A stretch of DNA of 64,000 nt from UHGV virus genome UHGV-1375844. The stretch is one strand, 5' to 3'. Shown piece after piece: positions 2,815-59,354 of this stretch. Within the stretch, counting starts at the first letter, position 1; the number at the start of each line of letters is the position of its first letter. Below the pieces are notes generated by a model, which made no database searches, had not been told where the DNA came from, and worked only from the letters and a program-made list of their open reading frames with translations. Position numbers and translations under genes: made by a program. This DNA is from a virus.

Positions 2815-3195
2815 ATGGCTACCAATGAAACAAAACAAGGTCGCTACGCCGCCTATATCGACTCTCTCATCACCATTTCTCCAAAAAGTCAGGCCACTAT
2901 TGCTAAGGAAATTGGGTACAAAAACCCCAATAATCTATCGCTTATCAAAAGTGGCAAAATTCCTCTGCCGGTGGACAAGGTTCGCCCGTTGGCCAACTCT
3001 TTGGATGCTGATCCAGTACGTCTCATGCTCATGGTTCTCGAAGAGCGTCACCCTGAGCTTCTTGAGTTCTTCCGTGATGAAGGCACAGCTCCGCTTTCCC
3101 AAGACGAAAAACAGGTATTGGATGCTTTTCGTAAGCGTTTCGATGGTCAACAAGGTGCTTCAGAACAGGTCGTCGAGGCCATCAAGTCAATGTGA
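2815..3195 (+). CDS. Putative HTH transcriptional regulator (candidate lysogeny-switch protein)
   Basis: N-terminal segment SQATIAKEIGYKNPNNLSLIKSGK resembles an XRE-type helix-turn-helix; divergent promoter region with 2340..2561; convergent with and adjacent to the integrase; variant of the intergenic palindrome (agtaagcacttac, 2771-2783) upstream. Confidence 0.5.
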   Translation: MATNETKQGRYAAYIDSLITISPKSQATIAKEIGYKNPNNLSLIKSGKIPLPVDKVRPLANSLDADPVRLMLMVLEERHPELLEFFRDEGTAPLSQDEKQVLDAFRKRFDGQQGASEQVVEAIKSM

Positions 3196-4293
3196 GAAAT
3201 TTATACGAATAAGCTCTGTCGCTAGACGATCTCCCTTGAAATTATGGTCTATCTCGTCTAAATCTGGTTGTTCTACGATGGATGCGATGTACGCCGAAAA
3301 TTTACATAAGGCGTCTCGCATTTCATCCATATAGTCGTGACGGTCGTAAACCCGATCTATACCTTCAAGGCTATGGTTCATGATTTTACGAGAGACTTCC
3401 TGATTAATACCCAGGGCAGGGAAATAGCTACGCGCAGTTCTTCGCAGATCGCGTGGGGTGAAAACCTCAACCTCCATCAACTCCGGACGTTCCAAAATCC
3501 TCCGGAGCGCCTGTGATATGGCTACTTTAGACATTGGCATGTCCTTATCGCGTTTCTTGTTTGAGGGCACCAGCCACTGGCTGTCTTTCCCATATTTAAA
3601 CAGTTCCTCGACGCACTTCCTCATCAGCGGGCTTAACGGTAGAGCATGTTGCCTGGCCGATTTATTACGTGTGCCTTGATTCCATACATCACGTTGAAGG
3701 TTGAACTCACTCTTCTTGGCCCGGAGCACTTCATCGGGTCGCCTGGCAGCCACGAGACATAATCTGGCCGCCCACTTTGTCCCTTCGCATACGTTGAAAT
3801 AATCCCAGACGTTCCAAAAAACCCAAACTTCGGCGTCCGTTAGCTTCCGTTCCCGGGGCGTAGGTTTGGCGCCACCAGCGACTTTGTTGAGCGACATATC
3901 GTTCAACGGCGACGTTTCGATGACCCCCTGGAAGGCGCACCAGCCCAAAAACTGCTTCATCAGGGAAAACACACGCCTGCCCATGACGATCTTCCCTTCC
4001 AGAATGAGCGGGTTCACCAGCTGGTTGACGAGAACCCTACTAATGTCACTTACTTTTACATCAGAGATAAAAGGTAAAACATGTATCAAAACACAATGGA
4101 CGGCGATCTCCGGTCGGCGTCTTGTTATGAGTAAAGATAAGCGAGTGAATAACAAGAAGGCATCTGAAAACTTCATGTCGCCACTTACCAGAGAGGCTGC
4201 CATCGCATTCATTTGCGAAGCCCGTTCCAGAAACTCAATCGCTTCTCGTGAGGTGTTTTCGGCTGCGCGTGCTCGATCAAACGAATTTTTCAT
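3187..4293 (-). CDS. int: Tyrosine recombinase / phage integrase (P4-like)
   Basis: C-terminal FTPRDLRRTARSY ... NHSLEGIDRVYDRHDY matches the box II / catalytic Tyr region of tyrosine integrases, but with Arg where the first box II His is usual; 368 aa. Confidence 0.75.
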   Translation of the reverse strand: MKNSFDRARAAENTSREAIEFLERASQMNAMAASLVSGDMKFSDAFLLFTRLSLLITRRRPEIAVHCVLIHVLPFISDVKVSDISRVLVNQLVNPLILEGKIVMGRRVFSLMKQFLGWCAFQGVIETSPLNDMSLNKVAGGAKPTPRERKLTDAEVWVFWNVWDYFNVCEGTKWAARLCLVAARRPDEVLRAKKSEFNLQRDVWNQGTRNKSARQHALPLSPLMRKCVEELFKYGKDSQWLVPSNKKRDKDMPMSKVAISQALRRILERPELMEVEVFTPRDLRRTARSYFPALGINQEVSRKIMNHSLEGIDRVYDRHDYMDEMRDALCKFSAYIASIVEQPDLDEIDHNFKGDRLATELIRINFSH

Positions 4294-6999: not shown

Positions 7000-7046
7000 G
7001 TTGAGTCCTTTCAAGTGAGTCACCGGCCTGACTATAGCTAAATATG

Positions 7047-7066
7047 ATAAGTAAGTCATTACTTAT
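7047..7066. repeat. Intergenic palindrome family (ATAAGTAAG-n-CTTACTTAT), copy
   Basis: ataagtaagtcattacttat between the PhoH start and the plus-strand moron. Confidence 0.6.
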
Positions 7067-7205
7067 TTATCGTGGCTTTGTGCTAGGTTAAAACAGCTTT
7101 GGGGAGCTGGTGCGCTTAAGGCCTTCCAGAAAACTCAAACTAGCTGAAATAGTAGGGTCAATTAGGTATCATTCCTTTTCAAATTTAACCAAAGACTCTT
7201 ATAAA

Positions 7206-8438
7206 ATGCCTGCTTTGTTAATTCTCATAATTGGGACATTGATGATTATTTTCTGGGATGTGATTAAGGAAAACGTAGAGGTTATAGGTACGCTTGCCAC
7301 TTCACTTGCCTTTTTTGCTACTGCCTGGGCTGCTTACGAGGCAAGGCATAGTGCAAAGGCGGCAATGAAGGCGACCCAGCTGACGGCTGATTCACTTCTT
7401 GAAATGAAAAAAGCCTCTTTTAAGGAGTGGTACGGCATTTTACTTGAACAGCATAATAAATTACTTGAGGATGTTAATAAGACCTTATTGGATGACAATG
7501 AACTTAATACCAGGTTGAATATTAATGTCATAAGAGGTATTTATTATCACGTAACCAAAAATCCTGCTTACATTAAGTATATTAATCACATAATTTTAAT
7601 CCTGAATTATGTAGATAAAGACTTTTATCTGCCGTCCTCGGCGGAAAATGAAAAGAGATCTTATATAGAACAGTTGCGCAACAGCATTAGCCCAAAAGTA
7701 AGCCTGCTGATTGCTATTTTTGGCCTTAATATCGACAATAATAAAACTTATGATGCAAAGAAACTTTACAACCTTCTAAGCAAATATAACTTTTTTGAAA
7801 ATGAGCTATTTTTTGAAGTTGCAATATCAAAAGTTCATTACTTAGACACTTATGTCGCCGAGATATTTGACAAAGAATACCGAAAAGACGTTGAATTTTA
7901 TGTTGATGAAACGGTTTGTGGTCGTGCGCTCTCTTTTATCAATACGACATGCCGACACCATAGGATTACTTTCGCAGTTCAGTGGTCTTACAACAACCCC
8001 TGCCAAAAGCATTTGCTGAAAAGATTCAATGACCTACCTATGCACATGAGAAACGTCATTGGGCTGAACATGGAAAAAGCAGCCGAGAAAGTGGCTACGT
8101 TTAATTCTGAGTTGCCTGGTTTTGTCGGCTGGGAAATTAAGATTGCTAATAATAAGGTGAGAGTAATTAAGGATGAAAAAGAACTGAAAAGGCTAATAAA
8201 GCTTTACTATAAATACCCCTTTGACCCTCGACAAACTGGTATCGTGTTAACCAATGGTTTCACCAATAGATTCGCCGATGAGATTAGGAATAGTATGTCT
8301 AGCTATGCTTTACATAAAGCCTATCTAGAACTCAGCTCTAATCCGAACAAAGATCAGGTAATTGATGAGATTGTGTCAGAGGTTGAAAAAATGGTCGATA
8401 AATTTAAAACAGAACTTAATTCTTTCTGCTTTAACTGA
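7206..8438 (+). CDS. Hypothetical membrane-anchored protein, AT-rich moron
   Basis: Only plus-strand gene in a minus-strand block; markedly AT-rich, K/N/I/Y-rich; N-terminal hydrophobic helix (PALLILIIGTLMIIFW); own terminator; ORF track begins at GTG 7110, first ATG at 7206, no clear SD. Confidence 0.55.
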   Translation: MPALLILIIGTLMIIFWDVIKENVEVIGTLATSLAFFATAWAAYEARHSAKAAMKATQLTADSLLEMKKASFKEWYGILLEQHNKLLEDVNKTLLDDNELNTRLNINVIRGIYYHVTKNPAYIKYINHIILILNYVDKDFYLPSSAENEKRSYIEQLRNSISPKVSLLIAIFGLNIDNNKTYDAKKLYNLLSKYNFFENELFFEVAISKVHYLDTYVAEIFDKEYRKDVEFYVDETVCGRALSFINTTCRHHRITFAVQWSYNNPCQKHLLKRFNDLPMHMRNVIGLNMEKAAEKVATFNSELPGFVGWEIKIANNKVRVIKDEKELKRLIKLYYKYPFDPRQTGIVLTNGFTNRFADEIRNSMSSYALHKAYLELSSNPNKDQVIDEIVSEVEKMVDKFKTELNSFCFN

Positions 8439-8446
8439 CTAAAAGA

Positions 8447-8474
8447 AAAGGGGCCGAAGCCCCTTTGGATTTTG
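8447..8474. terminator. Bidirectional rho-independent terminator
   Basis: ggggc-cgaa-gcccc hairpin flanked by an A-run (8441-8449) and a T-rich run (8464-8473); sits between convergent genes 7206..8438 (+) and 8639..9250 (-). Confidence 0.7.
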
Positions 8475-8638
8475 CGCTGAAAAAAGTCTAACTACGATGC
8501 TAAGAAGCACTATGGTTAAGAACGTCTGCCGTGTCTATCACAGCGTTGAACGGTCTGGGTGACGTTAGCGGAGTCATTTAGTGAATGGAATCCCAAACCG
8601 TTCAGCGATGTGCTGGCCTCCGCAGAGGCCAGTCGGTA

Positions 8639-9250
8639 TTACGATTTGCCGGCGTTAACTACCACGCCCTGGCGACGAGAGTCAGCTTCGGCAATCTTCA
8701 GTCGAGTTTCGCGTTCGGCCTTCAGCTCGCCCTGCAATTGGGCCACCTGCGACTCAAGGAACTCGATACGAGAGTCTTTCGCGGCGCTGGATGCGTTCAG
8801 TTCCGCCATTTCCACACGATGATCAGACTTCAGCTGGTTGACTTCCGCAGTAAATTTGCTGGCAGCTGCGCTATAGCCAGCTTCGCGAGCTGTGTTAACC
8901 GCCTCTTCGTTGTTGTCCAGCGCGTTTTCAAGATCGCGCTTAAGCTGAGTCAGCTCGACGTTGGAAATGCTGGCCAGACCGCGCTTCTTCATCAGATCCG
9001 CAAGTACGCCATCTTCGTTTTCGATTACCTTCAGACGCAGTTCCGCAGCCTTTTCTCGCTCTTTACTTGCGAACTGGCTATCCAGACCAGCCAGCTCAGC
9101 CTGGCGATATTCAATTTCTTCGGCCAACGTAACGCTGGTTTGTGAAAGGGTGTTCAGCTCGGTCGCAACCTTCGCCATATCACCGGCAGCTTTAACCATT
9201 GCTTTGGTGGAACGCTCAGTTAGGGAGATGACTTTCTTAACTTCGGACAT
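8639..9250 (-). CDS. Hypothetical coiled-coil protein
   Basis: 203 aa, heptad-rich (AELAGLDSQFASKEREKAAELRLK..., VAQLQGELKAERETRLK); immediately downstream of the tRNA cluster. Confidence 0.5.
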   Translation of the reverse strand: MSEVKKVISLTERSTKAMVKAAGDMAKVATELNTLSQTSVTLAEEIEYRQAELAGLDSQFASKEREKAAELRLKVIENEDGVLADLMKKRGLASISNVELTQLKRDLENALDNNEEAVNTAREAGYSAAASKFTAEVNQLKSDHRVEMAELNASSAAKDSRIEFLESQVAQLQGELKAERETRLKIAEADSRRQGVVVNAGKS

Positions 9251-9275
9251 GTGTTTTCCTTCGTCGCTTTTATAT

Positions 9276-9362
9276 TGGCGGAAGGTAATGGAATCGAACC
9301 ATCACCGCGCTCGCAGTGGGACGGTTTTCAAGACCGCTTGAGCACCATGCTCCCTACCTTCC
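9276..9362 (-). tRNA. tRNA-Ser: tRNA-Ser (anticodon UGA), class II with long variable arm
   Basis: Reverse complement gives GGAAGGT...GGTCTTGAAAACCG...GGTTCGATTCC...ACCTTCCGCCA; 7-bp acceptor stem, encoded CCA, anticodon loop CTTGAAA. Confidence 0.7.
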
Positions 9363-9604: not shown

Positions 9605-9737
9605 TGGTGCCGGTTAACGGACTCGAACCGTTGACCTCTGGCCTAACATCGGATCGTTGTCATTGACCAGCCATGCTGTCTACCGAAGTAGAAACGATGC
9701 TTTGGCTCTCGCGCTCTACCAACTGAGCTAAACCGGC
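9605..9737 (-). tRNA. tRNA-like element with a ~58-nt internal insertion (disrupted or intron-bearing tRNA)
   Basis: Reverse complement starts GCCGGTTTAGCTCAGTTGGTAGAGC (acceptor + D arm) and ends AACGGTTCGAGTCCGTTAACCGGCACCA (T arm + acceptor + CCA), but 79 nt separate the D arm from the T arm; the insert contains a UUCG-tetraloop hairpin (tctac-ttcg-gtaga). Confidence 0.35.
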
Positions 9738-9739
9738 AT

Positions 9740-9814
9740 TGGCGATGATGGGTGGATTCGAACCACCGACCAGTTGATTAACAGTCAACCGCTCTACCAC
9801 TGAGCTACACCATC
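9740..9814 (-). tRNA. tRNA-Asn: tRNA-Asn (anticodon GUU)
   Basis: Reverse complement GATGGTGTAGCTCAGTGGTAGAGCGGTTGACTGTTAATCAACTGGTCGGTGGTTCGAATCCACCCATCATCGCCA folds as a canonical cloverleaf; anticodon loop CTGTTAA. Confidence 0.8.
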
Positions 9815-17720: not shown

Positions 17721-18131
17721 CTATTTTTCGATAACTCTTTGTTCAACTTCTTGCATCTGCTTTTCAGTGAGACTAGAAATGTGTTGATTCAGCAACAGAT
17801 TGCGGTAGAAACTTTTTTGAGCCTCCGATAAATCCTGTCGCTTATCAATGTTTCTCAAAGCATTGCCGTAACTCTCGCTGATCGCATCACCATTGAATGC
17901 CTCAATAATGGTTTTCACATTCATAGCCAAGACGCCAAAGATAAAACAACCAGTGTTGTATACCCAGTCTACAACAAACCCTTTGGCGTACAAGAAAGGG
18001 GTTAAAATGTGAAGAATAACCCAAAGCAAAGCGCCAATTATTATTCCAAAAGCAGTTCTAAGCGGATAGCCCAAAAACAGAATATCTATTGCCCGATTTA
18101 AATTCCGACTAAAGAAATCATGATCTGGCAT
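17721..18131 (-). CDS. Hypothetical membrane protein (136 aa), AT-rich
   Basis: Two predicted TM helices; last gene of the ParA operon; start overlaps upstream gene. Confidence 0.5.
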   Translation of the reverse strand: MPDHDFFSRNLNRAIDILFLGYPLRTAFGIIIGALLWVILHILTPFLYAKGFVVDWVYNTGCFIFGVLAMNVKTIIEAFNGDAISESYGNALRNIDKRQDLSEAQKSFYRNLLLNQHISSLTEKQMQEVEQRVIEK

Positions 18132-18762
18132 CTAAAACCCCCTTTCCCAATTCTTCCCCTGGAATTTCTTCCGAGGCAGGGGTATTAAATATTTTACGCC
18201 TTCTGCCGCTTCCACCATCATCGATCTTGTCGATATTATTTTCGATGAACTTTAAAAGCTGTATAGCCTCTGTACTATTGTTGCCGTAAAACCCTTTGGA
18301 AATACGATATGTCAGAACGCGCTCTTTCAGCTCAAGTAAAACAAAGACAACAATCCCGATAATAGTTACAATGGGGCTAAAGCCCCAAAAGTAACCCATT
18401 GAAGCACCAAGAAAAATCATCAGCACCGATAAAAACTTAACCTTAAGGAAGGTTTTTTTCTCATATAAAAGATAAAGCTCGGAAATAGTTTTCCTTTTCA
18501 AAAACTCTTGCTCTTTCTTTAAATTGTCCTCATGTTTTGCTTTTATCTCTTGTAATTTTATTCTGTACTCTTCTGATTTTATATAACTCAATGTATTACG
18601 ATACAAGAAACTACATACCATACCTATCATTGAGCCAATAACAGAAATGACACCTTGGTTTGAAATTCCCAACAACCCCATAACCTTTCCAAAGATCACG
18701 GCGGCTATAATGGCTAACATTAGACCTACGAACCATCCGAAATGTCTATTCAGGAATTTCAT
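18118..18762 (-). CDS. Hypothetical multi-pass membrane protein (214 aa), AT-rich
   Basis: Several hydrophobic helices; K/E-rich coiled segment; composition clearly more AT-rich than flanking genes. Confidence 0.5.
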   Translation of the reverse strand: MKFLNRHFGWFVGLMLAIIAAVIFGKVMGLLGISNQGVISVIGSMIGMVCSFLYRNTLSYIKSEEYRIKLQEIKAKHEDNLKKEQEFLKRKTISELYLLYEKKTFLKVKFLSVLMIFLGASMGYFWGFSPIVTIIGIVVFVLLELKERVLTYRISKGFYGNNSTEAIQLLKFIENNIDKIDDGGSGRRRKIFNTPASEEIPGEELGKGVLDARS

Positions 18763-57603: not shown

Positions 57604-58131
57604 ATGACGAACATAACTGACATCACCTACGGTATACCTGCAGAAGTCTGGCCGCGGGATTATTCTAACGTCGAGAAGGCACTCATGTTCTGGCGTAAAT
57701 CCCTCATTCCTGTAAGGGTCACGATGGAGGATGGTCAGGTGTTCTGCATGTATGTGCAGGGTCTCATGTCATCCCGCAATAAGGTTGATCTTTGCTCTGC
57801 CCCGTTCGACAAAGAAAATCGTATAAGGCTCCCACTTGAGCGGATCAGCACGATTGAGTCGGGTGTGACAGAAAGTATTGGACACGACTTCAAGGGGCGA
57901 ATCACGATTAACCCCGAATATGTTGATAATCGGCCATCTCGCCGGGACTTCTTCAAAATCTGTCGGCAGGCTCATGCGTCTCAGAAGTCTATAAGGGTGT
58001 ACATGGCGGATGGCCGTGAAATTGAAGGTGTGTCATTAGGCGTTGACGCTTGCCAGGTCACGATCGGCATTGGTGAAGGTCGCAAGATGGTGGTCTTGTT
58101 CGATTGGGTCGAAAGGATTATACCGTTTTAA
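57604..58131 (+). CDS. Hypothetical protein (175 aa)
   Basis: ORF track; 4 nt after the lipoprotein gene. Confidence 0.45.
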   Translation: MTNITDITYGIPAEVWPRDYSNVEKALMFWRKSLIPVRVTMEDGQVFCMYVQGLMSSRNKVDLCSAPFDKENRIRLPLERISTIESGVTESIGHDFKGRITINPEYVDNRPSRRDFFKICRQAHASQKSIRVYMADGREIEGVSLGVDACQVTIGIGEGRKMVVLFDWVERIIPF

Positions 58132-58452: not shown

Positions 58453-59100
58453 ATGTCTAACGTTATCTCTAAAAAAGCTATCATCGACGCTGCTGTAGTT
58501 ATCACTGAAGAGCTTCAGATCAAAGCAAATGAAGCAAGCCAGACACGCGAACAACGCGCTAAAAATGGAACTGCTACCAAAGCAGATAAAGCTAACGAGC
58601 TTGCAGCCACTACTAAACTTGCATACTTCACTAACAACGTATTAAACGCGCTTAAAGATGAAAAATTAGCTGGTGTCTTTTACTACGCGATTAAAGCCAG
58701 CAAGCAAGATCCAGAAGTATTTTTCCGTGAAGCGATGACTAATAGCTACTCTCTCGAAAAGCTGGTTTATCTGGTGAAGTCTATTAAGTCTGGCAAATGT
58801 GTTTATTCAGTCGCTGATATGTCAGGATCTCGCGTATTCGCATTAATCGAAATGATTAATGATGAAATGGAAACTTTTACTAATGGCGCTGTATTCGATT
58901 TAATGAATGAAGCTAAAAAAGCATGTGAGATTAAATTAGACGCTGGCTACACTCAAGCCAATCAGCTTATCAATTTGTGTGAACGTCTGGGACTGGTCGA
59001 GAAGATCAAAGGAATGGGCGCTGCTAAAAACGGATCTCAGCAATATCGCTTTATCAAGAATGATTTTTATAACTATCTGGCTGAAGCGTTCAAAGCGTAA
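58453..59100 (+). CDS. Hypothetical protein (215 aa), AT-rich moron-like gene
   Basis: Preceded by a ~300-bp very AT-rich promoter-like region (58140-58450); followed by a strong terminator. Confidence 0.5.
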   Translation: MSNVISKKAIIDAAVVITEELQIKANEASQTREQRAKNGTATKADKANELAATTKLAYFTNNVLNALKDEKLAGVFYYAIKASKQDPEVFFREAMTNSYSLEKLVYLVKSIKSGKCVYSVADMSGSRVFALIEMINDEMETFTNGAVFDLMNEAKKACEIKLDAGYTQANQLINLCERLGLVEKIKGMGAAKNGSQQYRFIKNDFYNYLAEAFKA

Positions 59101-59150: not shown

Positions 59151-59354
59151 ATGACAAGCTATGACCAGATCCTCGCGGAGTATCGCGCAAAATATCGCGC
59201 TTATAAACTTGAATTAATCGACGATCTAAAAGCGCAACGCGATAAACTAAATTTTACTTTTGCTGATTTGCTTAACAGTAAAAGAGACTGTAAACGCAAG
59301 CGTGAATATTTGCGCTTGTCTGAAATGATCGGAAAACTGCAAAACAGCATTTAA
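59151..59354 (+). CDS. Hypothetical small basic protein (67 aa)
   Basis: ORF track; AGGA RBS; flanked by two near-identical terminator hairpins. Confidence 0.45.
   Translation: MTSYDQILAEYRAKYRAYKLELIDDLKAQRDKLNFTFADLLNSKRDCKRKREYLRLSEMIGKLQNSI

What the first reader, a model, noticed from the sequence alone, without database searches (positions are those of the whole stretch)
7110..8474. AT-rich, opposite-strand moron encoding a 410-aa membrane-anchored protein with its own bidirectional terminator
This is the only plus-strand gene in a long minus-strand block. Its base composition is far more AT-rich than the flanking genes, it has an N-terminal transmembrane helix and a large K/N/Y-rich domain with no motif I recognise, and it ends in a textbook hairpin terminator. 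In a phage that also encodes an integrase, this pattern is typical of horizontally acquired abortive-infection, superinfection-exclusion or lysogenic-conversion genes.
Basis: partly seen in the sequence, partly recalled or inferred. Interest (0 to 1): 0.6.

Follow-up and report, generated by a model that had tools for sequence, protein, structure and literature searches.

The report
AbiC-like defence moron in phage-plasmid
The gene is a real, AT-rich, horizontally acquired add-on in a Salmonella SSU5-like phage-plasmid; it encodes a membrane-anchored, distant and untested relative of the lactococcal AbiC/AbiP anti-phage proteins and sits in a swap-in slot that holds other defence genes (such as AbiH) in sister plasmids, so it is a plausible but fairly ordinary new anti-phage gene.

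Summary
The window is an SSU5-like phage-plasmid, 99.8% identical to Salmonella pSA20094620.2. The ORF at 7206-8438 (+, 410 aa) is the only plus-strand gene among 57 annotated genes between 3187 and 54600. It has the lowest GC of 73 annotated genes (36.8% against a mean of 49.8%).

Correction 1: two N-terminal transmembrane helices are predicted, not one. Correction 2: the hairpin at 8447-8466 is not the gene's own. It is invariant backbone, present in sister plasmids whatever fills the slot, including an empty slot.

The gene is under purifying selection (dN/dS 0.15-0.30). It falls below the Pfam cut-off for putAbiC (PF16872) and gets no PADLOC hit. However, a profile of its homologues retrieves proteins of which 40/45 match putAbiC and some match PADLOC AbiC or AbiP.

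The slot between the phoH promoter and the hairpin holds different cargo in different plasmids. I found this gene, a 39%-identical allele, AbiH, a HEPN-like pair, unrelated 529-aa and 302-aa genes, or nothing. Homologues also occur as AT-rich lone genes in a lambdoid prophage, an integrative island and other plasmids.

Best reading: a single-gene, inner-membrane-tethered, Abi-like anti-phage cargo gene. The function is inferred, not shown. It is a new member of a known kind and of moderate interest.

The parts
7031..7067 (-). Backbone: promoter-like site of the phoH-grxA operon (-35 ATGACT, 17 nt, -10 TATAGT). It overlaps a near-palindromic motif TAAGTAAGTCATTACTTA at 7048-7065. This marks the left boundary of the cargo slot.
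   Evidence: Promoter scan. The motif occurs 12 times in the window against 0.02 expected. Homology with sister plasmids ends at about 7066-7074.
7075..7205 (+). Cargo-specific upstream region. The stretch 7075-7139 is poorly conserved (23% invariant columns) and has an indel at about 7133. The stretch 7140-7205 is conserved (77% invariant) and holds a candidate sigma-70 promoter at 7144-7172 (CTGAAA, 17 nt, TATCAT) plus a short A/T-rich leader with no obvious Shine-Dalgarno sequence.
   Evidence: Promoter activity is inferred, not shown.
7206..8438 (+). CDS of the 410-aa AbiC/AbiP-like (putAbiC-related) membrane-anchored protein.
   Evidence: ORF. 74 homologue clusters. dN/dS is 0.15-0.30, and variable columns are biased to the third codon position at 127:95:241. 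PHROG 18168 at 5e-153. AF2 model with pLDDT 84.6 and pTM 0.73.
7212..7337 (+). Predicted membrane hairpin: TM1 at residues 3-17 and TM2 at residues 26-44. They are joined by an acidic 8-residue loop (DVIKENVE) and followed by a basic juxtamembrane helix (six K/R in residues 45-75). By the positive-inside rule this implies N-in/C-in topology, with the 365-aa C-terminal domain in the cytoplasm.
   Evidence: Kyte-Doolittle 17-residue means reach 2.68 and 1.57. AF2 helices span 2-15 and 24-96. TM2 and the juxtamembrane helix form the most conserved block of the close family. Topology is inferred.
7440..7802 (+). Conserved core shared with the putAbiC family. The LLEQHN motif covers residues 79-84 and the Pfam PF16872-aligned segment covers residues 124-199. 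H83, Y125, R158 and F196-F197-E198 are retained. The near-invariant N172, Y187 and H199 of the wider family are F, L and N here.
8447..8466 (.). Backbone hairpin terminator GGGGCC-GAAG-GGCCCC with flanking A/T runs. This marks the right boundary of the cargo slot. It is bidirectional in form, and its loop is C(UUCG)G on the minus strand.
   Evidence: It is invariant in six plasmids with different or no cargo.
8467..8638 (-). Conserved non-coding backbone segment between the stop of the 203-aa gene and the hairpin. It may be a structured 3' UTR or a small RNA. It is not part of the cargo.
   Evidence: Alignment A3. RNA fold z=-5.5. No Rfam family matched.

Best explanation
The segment at about 7075-8445 is a single-gene cargo cassette (a moron). 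It sits in an inter-operon gap of an SSU5-like phage-plasmid, between the backbone terminator of the upstream minus-strand unit and the promoter of the phoH operon. It encodes a 410-aa inner-membrane-tethered protein. This protein has a two-helix hairpin and a large, mostly helical cytoplasmic domain, and it is a divergent member of the putAbiC (AbiC/AbiP) family.

The most likely role is a single-gene, Abi-like anti-phage protein. It would be expressed from its own promoter while the element is carried as a plasmid. On infection by another phage, its cytoplasmic domain would sense or bind a phage product or nucleic acid at the membrane. It would then block a middle or late step of phage development. 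In lactococci, AbiC lowers major-capsid-protein production, and AbiP binds RNA/ssDNA and blocks the early-to-middle switch. This would protect the plasmid-bearing population.

Shown here: gene reality, composition, strand, presence/absence, slot boundaries, alternative cargo and family-level homology. Inferred: expression in the carrier state, topology, anti-phage activity, and the step that is blocked.
For: 1. The gene is real and selected. There are 74 homologue clusters of conserved length. dN/dS is 0.15-0.30, against 0.05-0.10 for the adjacent phoH.
2. It looks foreign. It has the lowest GC of 73 genes and is the only + gene among 57. In 16 further loci the homologue has 31-39% GC against flanks of 44-58%, and the nearest predicted ORFs are mostly on the opposite strand.
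3. It is accessory. tblastn finds it in no phage record, SSU5 included, even though the window's structural module is 86.9% identical to SSU5. The full gene is in 37/421 plasmid hits and in 9 of 5426 complete E. coli genomes, always on plasmids.
4. The slot has fixed boundaries at about 7066-7074 and 8446. Its alternative contents are: empty (L007); AbiH, with Pfam 2.6e-62 and PADLOC 2.3e-27 (L010); two genes, one with a weak HEPN-like hit (L009); a 529-aa + strand gene (L008, L012); a 302-aa + strand gene (L014); and a 39%-identical allele beside an 89%-identical PhoH (L013).
5. Homology supports the family assignment. Pfam putAbiC scores E=0.0031 over residues 124-199, and 8/24 close homologues hit putAbiC, the best at 3.1e-7. 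The family profile finds 137 relatives among 1.84 billion representatives, many aligned over nearly the full length. Of 45 sampled (44 relatives plus the window protein itself), 40 match putAbiC at or below 1e-3, 7 match PADLOC AbiC and 5 match AbiP. H83, Y125, R158 and the LLEQHN and FFE motifs are retained.
6. The architecture matches AbiC, which has two N-terminal TM helices plus an extramembrane domain (review PMC13064643).
7. Homologues sit in other mobile elements. These are a lambdoid prophage between the lambda-P-like gene and the RusA/Q region, a CP4-like island next to CbtA/CbeA, and an IncFII-type plasmid contig.
Against: - The protein itself is below Pfam's gathering score (18.4 against 22 bits) and gets no PADLOC hit at E<=1.
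- Three near-invariant polar residues of the wider family are replaced: N172 to F, Y187 to L and H199 to N.
- No member of this subfamily has been tested. A lactococcal AbiC-like protein with 38% identity to AbiC gave no resistance in a recent screen (PMC11381338).
- The mechanism of AbiC itself is unknown.
- There is no structural match in PDB or BFVD that would suggest an activity.
- The promoter rests on a consensus-level match plus conservation only, and no Shine-Dalgarno sequence is evident.
- A DefenseFinder survey of SSU5-group phage-plasmids lists AbiH and other systems but not AbiC (preprint 10.1101/2025.09.12.675607). This fits a gene missed by current models, but it does not support the claim.
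Confidence: 0.6

Rival explanations
1. It is a superinfection-exclusion or other membrane-level barrier. In this reading the protein blocks DNA entry or an envelope step of incoming phages or plasmids, rather than acting after infection like an Abi protein.
For: The membrane anchor, TM2 and the juxtamembrane helix form the most conserved block of the close family. TM2 is rich in small residues spaced 3-4 apart, which suits helix packing. An SSU5-like Klebsiella plasmid reduced both phage plating and plasmid uptake, although the responsible gene was not identified (PMC8969562).
Against: Most of the protein is predicted to be cytoplasmic (about 365 aa) and the predicted periplasmic loop is only 8 residues. 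The only detectable homology is to the Abi-type AbiC/AbiP family.
Confidence: 0.15
2. It is a mobile accessory gene with a role other than phage defence. Possibilities are lysogenic conversion, membrane stress or fitness effects, competition with other plasmids, or counter-defence.
For: No function has been shown for any close relative. The slot also holds genes with no defence annotation. The same element carries another conversion-type gene, an FljA-like flagellin repressor.
Against: Family-level homology points to Abi proteins. A bona fide AbiH occupies the same slot. There is no signal peptide or sizeable exposed domain of the kind expected for surface modification.
Confidence: 0.12
3. It is a decaying or inactive relic of an AbiC-like gene that persists by hitch-hiking.
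For: Three near-invariant polar residues of the wider family are lost. A 38%-identical AbiC-like protein was inactive in a lactococcal screen.
Against: dN/dS is 0.15-0.30 across alleles with dS up to 0.9. The reading frame is intact in all full-length alleles sampled. The substitutions are shared by the whole subfamily, which points to divergence rather than decay.
Confidence: 0.08
4. It is a core phage-plasmid function, for example lysis control, replication anchoring or morphogenesis, that simply happens to be AT-rich.
For: The gene sits among replication and nucleotide-metabolism genes (phoH, grxA, ligase, helicase).
Against: It is absent from SSU5 and from most related plasmids. The slot is empty in E. 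cloacae P2 and holds unrelated genes elsewhere. Homologues occur in unrelated elements and as chromosomal islets.
Confidence: 0.03

Closest known systems
Lactococcal AbiC (Prf, plasmid pTN20), and Pfam PF16872 putAbiC
   Same: It is a single gene carried on a mobile element. It has two N-terminal transmembrane helices followed by a helical extramembrane domain. The core motifs LLEQHN, Y125, R158 and FFE are shared. Relatives retrieved with the family profile match putAbiC (40/45) and PADLOC AbiC (7/45).
   Different: The direct score is below the Pfam cut-off and PADLOC gives no hit. The protein is longer than AbiC. It lives in an enterobacterial phage-plasmid rather than a Gram-positive plasmid. 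Three near-invariant polar residues are replaced. No phenotype is known.
Lactococcal AbiP
   Same: The review PMC13064643 groups AbiP with AbiC as AbiC/P. AbiP is membrane-anchored with a cytoplasmic nucleic-acid-binding domain. Five of 45 relatives hit the PADLOC AbiP model.
   Different: AbiP has one TM helix and is shorter. Its RNA/ssDNA binding and its block of the early-to-middle switch have not been tested here and cannot be read from this sequence.
AbiH in K. pneumoniae pB16KP0177-3, the occupant of the same slot
   Same: It occupies the identical position between the phoH promoter and the conserved hairpin. It is a low-GC (38%) single-gene cargo.
   Different: It is an unrelated protein family, lies on the minus strand, and has no membrane anchor detected.
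Phage morons and defence hotspots of temperate phages and satellites (lambdoid morons; P2/P4 hotspots)
   Same: An AT-rich, independently oriented gene lies between conserved backbone genes. The boundaries are fixed and the content is exchangeable.
   Different: The terminator belongs to the backbone, not the cassette. The host element is an SSU5-like phage-plasmid. I found no description of this particular slot in the papers I searched.

Membership tests
Pfam PF16872 putAbiC | The protein scores at or above the curated gathering threshold (22 bits) | tested here: not met
   It scores 18.4 bits, E=0.0031, over residues 124-199 against model positions 8-74 of 80.
Pfam PF16872 putAbiC | Family-level (profile) homology to proteins that do pass the model | tested here: met
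   The profile of 24 close homologues finds 137 relatives. Of 45 sampled (44 relatives plus the window protein itself), 40 match putAbiC at E<=1e-3, the best at 1.2e-13. Eight of 24 close homologues match at E<=0.1, the best at 3.1e-7.
Pfam PF16872 putAbiC | Retention of the near-invariant core residues | tested here: inconclusive
   F72, L79, L80, Q82, H83, Y125, L133, R158, I161 and F196-F197-E198 are kept. N172, Y187 and H199 are F, L and N in this protein.
AbiC/AbiP group (lactococcal Abi systems) | N-terminal transmembrane anchor (two helices in AbiC, one in AbiP) plus an extramembrane domain | tested here: met
   Hydropathy peaks lie at residues 1-22 and 24-44. AF2 helices span 2-15 and 24-96. 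The family description comes from PMC13064643. This is a prediction only.
AbiC/AbiP group (lactococcal Abi systems) | Direct sequence match to AbiC or AbiP models | tested here: not met
   PADLOC gives no family at E<=1. The link is indirect only: 7 of 45 relatives hit AbiC and 5 of 45 hit AbiP.
AbiC/AbiP group (lactococcal Abi systems) | Structural superposition on the AbiC/AbiP extramembrane domain | not testable with these tools
   The AlphaFold database library was unavailable. PDB and BFVD hold no relative.
AbiC/AbiP group (lactococcal Abi systems) | Abortive-infection or anti-phage phenotype | not testable with these tools
   This needs phage-challenge experiments. No tested close relative turned up in the literature searches.
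Moron (independent cassette in a phage genome) | Present in some and absent from other closely related genomes, at a defined site | tested here: met
Moron (independent cassette in a phage genome) | Nucleotide composition differs from the backbone | tested here: met
Moron (independent cassette in a phage genome) | Own promoter | tested here: inconclusive
   There is a consensus-level site at 7144-7172 inside a conserved 66-nt upstream block. No transcript data are available.
Moron (independent cassette in a phage genome) | Own terminator | tested here: not met
   The hairpin at 8447-8466 is backbone. It is invariant in plasmids with empty or different slots.
Defence hotspot of a mobile element | The same site carries recognised defence genes in related elements | tested here: met
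   AbiH is found in CP052527.1 (Pfam 2.6e-62, PADLOC 2.3e-27). There is a weak HEPN-like hit in NZ_CP115617.1. Only about 9 slots were inspected, so this is not a census.

The most novel reading that the evidence does not exclude
The terminator-bounded gap next to phoH could be a dedicated single-gene defence hotspot of SSU5-like phage-plasmids. Its unannotated occupants would then be new anti-phage genes. These are this 410-aa protein, the 529-aa and 302-aa + strand genes, and the 184-aa plus 242-aa pair.

Within that reading, this subfamily would act differently from classical AbiC. It has replaced three near-invariant polar residues of the putAbiC core while keeping an almost invariant TM2 and juxtamembrane helix. 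One possibility is infection-triggered membrane permeabilisation through oligomerising TM hairpins.
Probability: 0.25. Interest if true: 0.5.

Novelty: new member of a known kind. Interest (0 to 1): 0.38.

Why it matters
SSU5-like phage-plasmids are common in clinical Salmonella, Shigella, E. coli, Klebsiella and Enterobacter. Their cargo can shape which therapeutic or environmental phages can infect these hosts.

This gene family is PHROG 18168, annotated 'unknown function'. PADLOC does not detect it, and it falls below the Pfam cut-off. A DefenseFinder survey of SSU5-group elements did not list AbiC. Current defence annotation therefore probably undercounts it.

Recognising the slot and its fixed boundaries gives a cheap way to harvest candidate defence genes from hundreds of sequenced plasmids. 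A tractable enterobacterial AbiC/AbiP relative could also help explain a lactococcal Abi family whose mechanism has stayed unknown since the 1990s.

Tried and rejected
- PADLOC on the protein gave no hit at E<=1.
- tblastn against 50,697 phage records gave no match.
- The afdb50 library was unavailable, so I could not compare the model with AbiC/AbiP models.
- A profile search of PDB sequences found nothing below E=0.17.
- NCBIfam gave no informative family for the relatives.
- hhalign of the family profile against the 529-aa and 302-aa slot occupants showed they are unrelated, with probability below 3%.
- Rfam found no family for the conserved non-coding segment at 8467-8638.
- The search for related loci with the distant alignment A2 failed because it had no conserved stretch. 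With A1 it found only two species-representative genomes.
- A literature search for 'putAbiC' and 'PF16872' returned no papers.
- I rejected the 442-aa GTG-7110 start. The region 7075-7139 has 23% invariant columns, an indel and no third-position bias, and stop codons occur there in other alleles.
- I rejected the hairpin as 'its own terminator'.
- My RSCU-distance measure did not single the gene out, so I rely on GC and GC3 only.
Full report
**What the window is.** The 1.6 kb around the finding is 99.8% identical to Salmonella enterica plasmid pSA20094620.2 (NZ_CP030187.1, 106.6 kb, IncFIB-typed, non-mobilizable). The capsid-portal-terminase module is 86.9% identical to Salmonella phage SSU5. 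The element is therefore an SSU5-like phage-plasmid. The 'integrase' at 3187-4293 belongs to an element that is maintained as a plasmid.

**Checking the observation.**
- An ORF runs on the + strand to a stop at 8436-8438. With ATG 7206 it encodes 410 aa, identical to a GenBank protein of that length (P0001).
- In the RefSeq annotation of the near-identical plasmid it is the only + strand gene among 57 genes between window 3187 and 54600.
- Its GC is 36.8% against 50.0% for the window. It lies in the lowest 0.16% of same-size windows and is the lowest of 73 annotated genes (mean 0.498, sd 0.044). GC3 is 0.39 against a mean of 0.55.
- A crude RSCU distance did not single it out.
- The gene is real. 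There are 74 homologue clusters of conserved length. Third-position bias of variable columns is 127:95:241. dN/dS is 0.15-0.30 against alleles with dS of 0.5-0.9, which is three to four times the ratio of the neighbouring phoH (0.05-0.10).

**The start codon.** ATG 7206 is favoured because the hydrophobic MPxxxILI start is conserved in homologues down to about 35% identity from unrelated contexts. The GTG-7110 extension is unlikely. The region 7075-7139 has 23% invariant columns and an indel, and other alleles have stop codons there. PGAP's ATG 7242 (398 aa) would delete the first hydrophobic helix.

1. There are two predicted membrane helices, at residues 3-17 and 26-44. They are joined by an acidic 8-residue loop and followed by a basic helix. 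By the positive-inside rule this places the 365-aa C-terminal domain in the cytoplasm. This topology is an inference.
2. The hairpin at 8447-8466 is real, but it is not the gene's own. Homology with sister plasmids resumes exactly at 8446. The hairpin and about 170 nt to its right are conserved in six plasmids whatever lies to its left, including an empty site and minus-strand cargo. On the minus strand the loop is a C(UUCG)G tetraloop followed by UUUUCUUUU. It therefore looks primarily like the terminator of the upstream minus-strand unit, which the cargo gene shares.

**Anatomy of the slot.** The left boundary is at about 7066-7074, immediately upstream of the phoH-operon promoter-like site. 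A near-palindromic motif TAAGTAAGTCATTACTTA lies there, and it recurs upstream of many minus-strand genes (12 matches against 0.02 expected). The right boundary is the hairpin. The cassette at about 7075-8445 therefore lies in a terminator-to-promoter gap.

Contents of this gap found in related plasmids:
- nothing, in E. cloacae OW849358.1;
- AbiH, in K. pneumoniae CP052527.1, with Pfam 2.6e-62 and PADLOC 2.3e-27;
- two minus-strand genes, one with a weak HEPN-like hit, in C. freundii;
- an unrelated 529-aa + strand gene, in K. pneumoniae and E. hormaechei;
- an unrelated 302-aa + strand gene, in E. coli;
- alleles of the present gene at about 73-81% amino-acid identity (about 79-85% nucleotide identity);
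- an allele at only 39-40% amino-acid identity next to a PhoH that is 89% identical.

Only 37 of 421 matching plasmids and 9 of 5426 complete E. coli genomes carry most of the gene, always on plasmids. No phage record carries it.

**What the protein is.**
- Pfam gives one sub-threshold hit: putAbiC (PF16872), E=0.0031, 18.4 bits against a cut-off of 22, over residues 124-199.
- PADLOC gives nothing.
- PHROGs places it in phrog_18168, of unknown function.
- Eight of 24 close homologues hit putAbiC, the best at 3.1e-7.
- A profile of the close family, searched against 1.84 billion representatives, finds 137 relatives. Many are 420-490 aa long and align over almost the whole length. I sampled 45 sequences (44 relatives plus the window protein itself). 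Of these, 40 match putAbiC at or below 1e-3 (best 1.2e-13), 7 match PADLOC AbiC and 5 match AbiP.
- The conserved core (F72, LLEQHN 79-84, Y125, L133, R158, I161, FFE 196-198) is retained. Three near-invariant polar positions of the wider family are replaced in this subfamily: N172 to F, Y187 to L and H199 to N.
- A recent review describes AbiC as two transmembrane helices plus an extramembrane domain and groups it with AbiP. AbiC lowers major-capsid-protein production. AbiP is membrane-anchored and binds RNA/ssDNA. The molecular mechanism is unknown (PMC13064643).
- The AF2 model is confident (pLDDT 84.6, pTM 0.73) and mostly helical with a small beta element. It has no meaningful match in BFVD or PDB. 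The AlphaFold database library was unavailable.

**Wider context.** Homologues behave as mobile cargo elsewhere.
- In Cedecea neteri a 45%-identical copy is a lone opposite-strand gene in a lambdoid prophage. It lies between the lambda-P-like replication gene and the RusA/Q region.
- In Serratia fonticola a copy sits at the end of a CP4-like island, beside CbtA/CbeA.
- Another copy is on an IncFII-type plasmid contig.
- Others are chromosomal islets with large intergenic flanks.
- In 16 further loci from genomes and viral contigs the gene has 31-39% GC against flanks of 44-58%. By a crude ORF call, its nearest neighbours are mostly on the opposite strand.

**Interpretation.** The most likely reading is a single-gene, inner-membrane-tethered, Abi-like anti-phage cargo gene of the AbiC/AbiP kind. 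It would be expressed from its own promoter in the plasmid state and would protect the carrier population from other phages. Confidence is about 0.6.

The promoter candidate lies at 7144-7172 within a conserved 66-nt block, but this rests on consensus and conservation only. The step that is blocked and the trigger are inferred from AbiC and AbiP. They cannot be read from this sequence.

Rivals are a superinfection-exclusion-type barrier (0.15), a non-defence accessory role (0.12), an inactive relic (0.08) and a core phage function (0.03). The last is largely refuted by the presence/absence pattern.

Cautions:
- The protein fails the Pfam and PADLOC thresholds on its own.
- Three conserved residues are substituted.
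- A 38%-identical AbiC-like protein was inactive in a lactococcal screen (PMC11381338).
- A DefenseFinder survey of SSU5-group elements reported AbiH and others but not AbiC.

**Verdict.** This is a new, currently unannotated member of a known kind: an AbiC/AbiP-like defence gene in a mobile-element hotspot. Interest is moderate (0.38). Its value lies mainly in the clearly bounded slot as a source of candidate defence genes, and in offering an enterobacterial handle on the poorly understood AbiC/P family.

Noticed in passing
window 8467-8638 (minus strand): This is a non-coding segment of about 170 nt between the stop of the 203-aa gene and the hairpin. It is conserved in all SSU5-like plasmids compared, regardless of cargo, with long invariant blocks. 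It folds well (z=-5.5) and matches no Rfam family. In E. coli p1585m1_B it directly abuts tRNA-Asn. It could be a small RNA, a structured 3' UTR or a tRNA-operon trailer.
   Followed up: partly
window 7048, 17546, 22839, 29919, 36386, 42907, 48166, 49679: The near-palindromic motif TAAGTAAGTnnnTACyTA gives 12 matches at up to 3 mismatches, against 0.02 expected. Almost all copies lie in short gaps just upstream of minus-strand genes or operons (phoH, tail fibre, portal and others). It is a candidate phage promoter or operator element.
   Followed up: partly
window 57604-58131 (+): This gene encodes an FljA-like 'repressor of phase-1 flagellin' (Pfam PF03614, E=2.7e-89). That is a possible lysogenic-conversion function (flagellar phase control) carried by a Salmonella phage-plasmid. 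Low-GC genes of unknown function lie next to it at 58453-59100 and 59151-59354.
   Followed up: no
window 17721-18762 (minus): This is a second low-GC island (37-39% GC) with two overlapping genes of 136 aa and 214 aa. Neither has a Pfam or PADLOC match. It may be another cargo slot.
   Followed up: partly
window 9608-9737 (minus): Rfam reports a tRNA match of 46.7 bits spanning 130 nt, between tRNA-Ser (9276-9362) and tRNA-Asn (9740-9814). ARAGORN did not call it. It may be a tRNA with an insertion, or a pseudo-tRNA.
   Followed up: no
L008 2431-4020, L012 1315-2904, L014 3095-4003, L009 2411-3772: Other occupants of the same slot in sister plasmids have no annotation. These are a 529-aa + strand gene (37% GC), a 302-aa + strand gene, and a pair of 184 aa and 242 aa whose larger member has a weak HEPN-like PADLOC hit (E=4.6e-4). 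All are candidate new defence genes.
   Followed up: partly
window 8639-9362 (minus): The 203-aa coiled-coil-like gene and tRNA-Ser are themselves variable. They are absent from E. coli p1585m1_B, where the conserved segment is followed directly by tRNA-Asn. The region between the integrase and phoH also varies: it holds a YafO-family toxin in some plasmids and a 207-aa unknown gene here.
   Followed up: no
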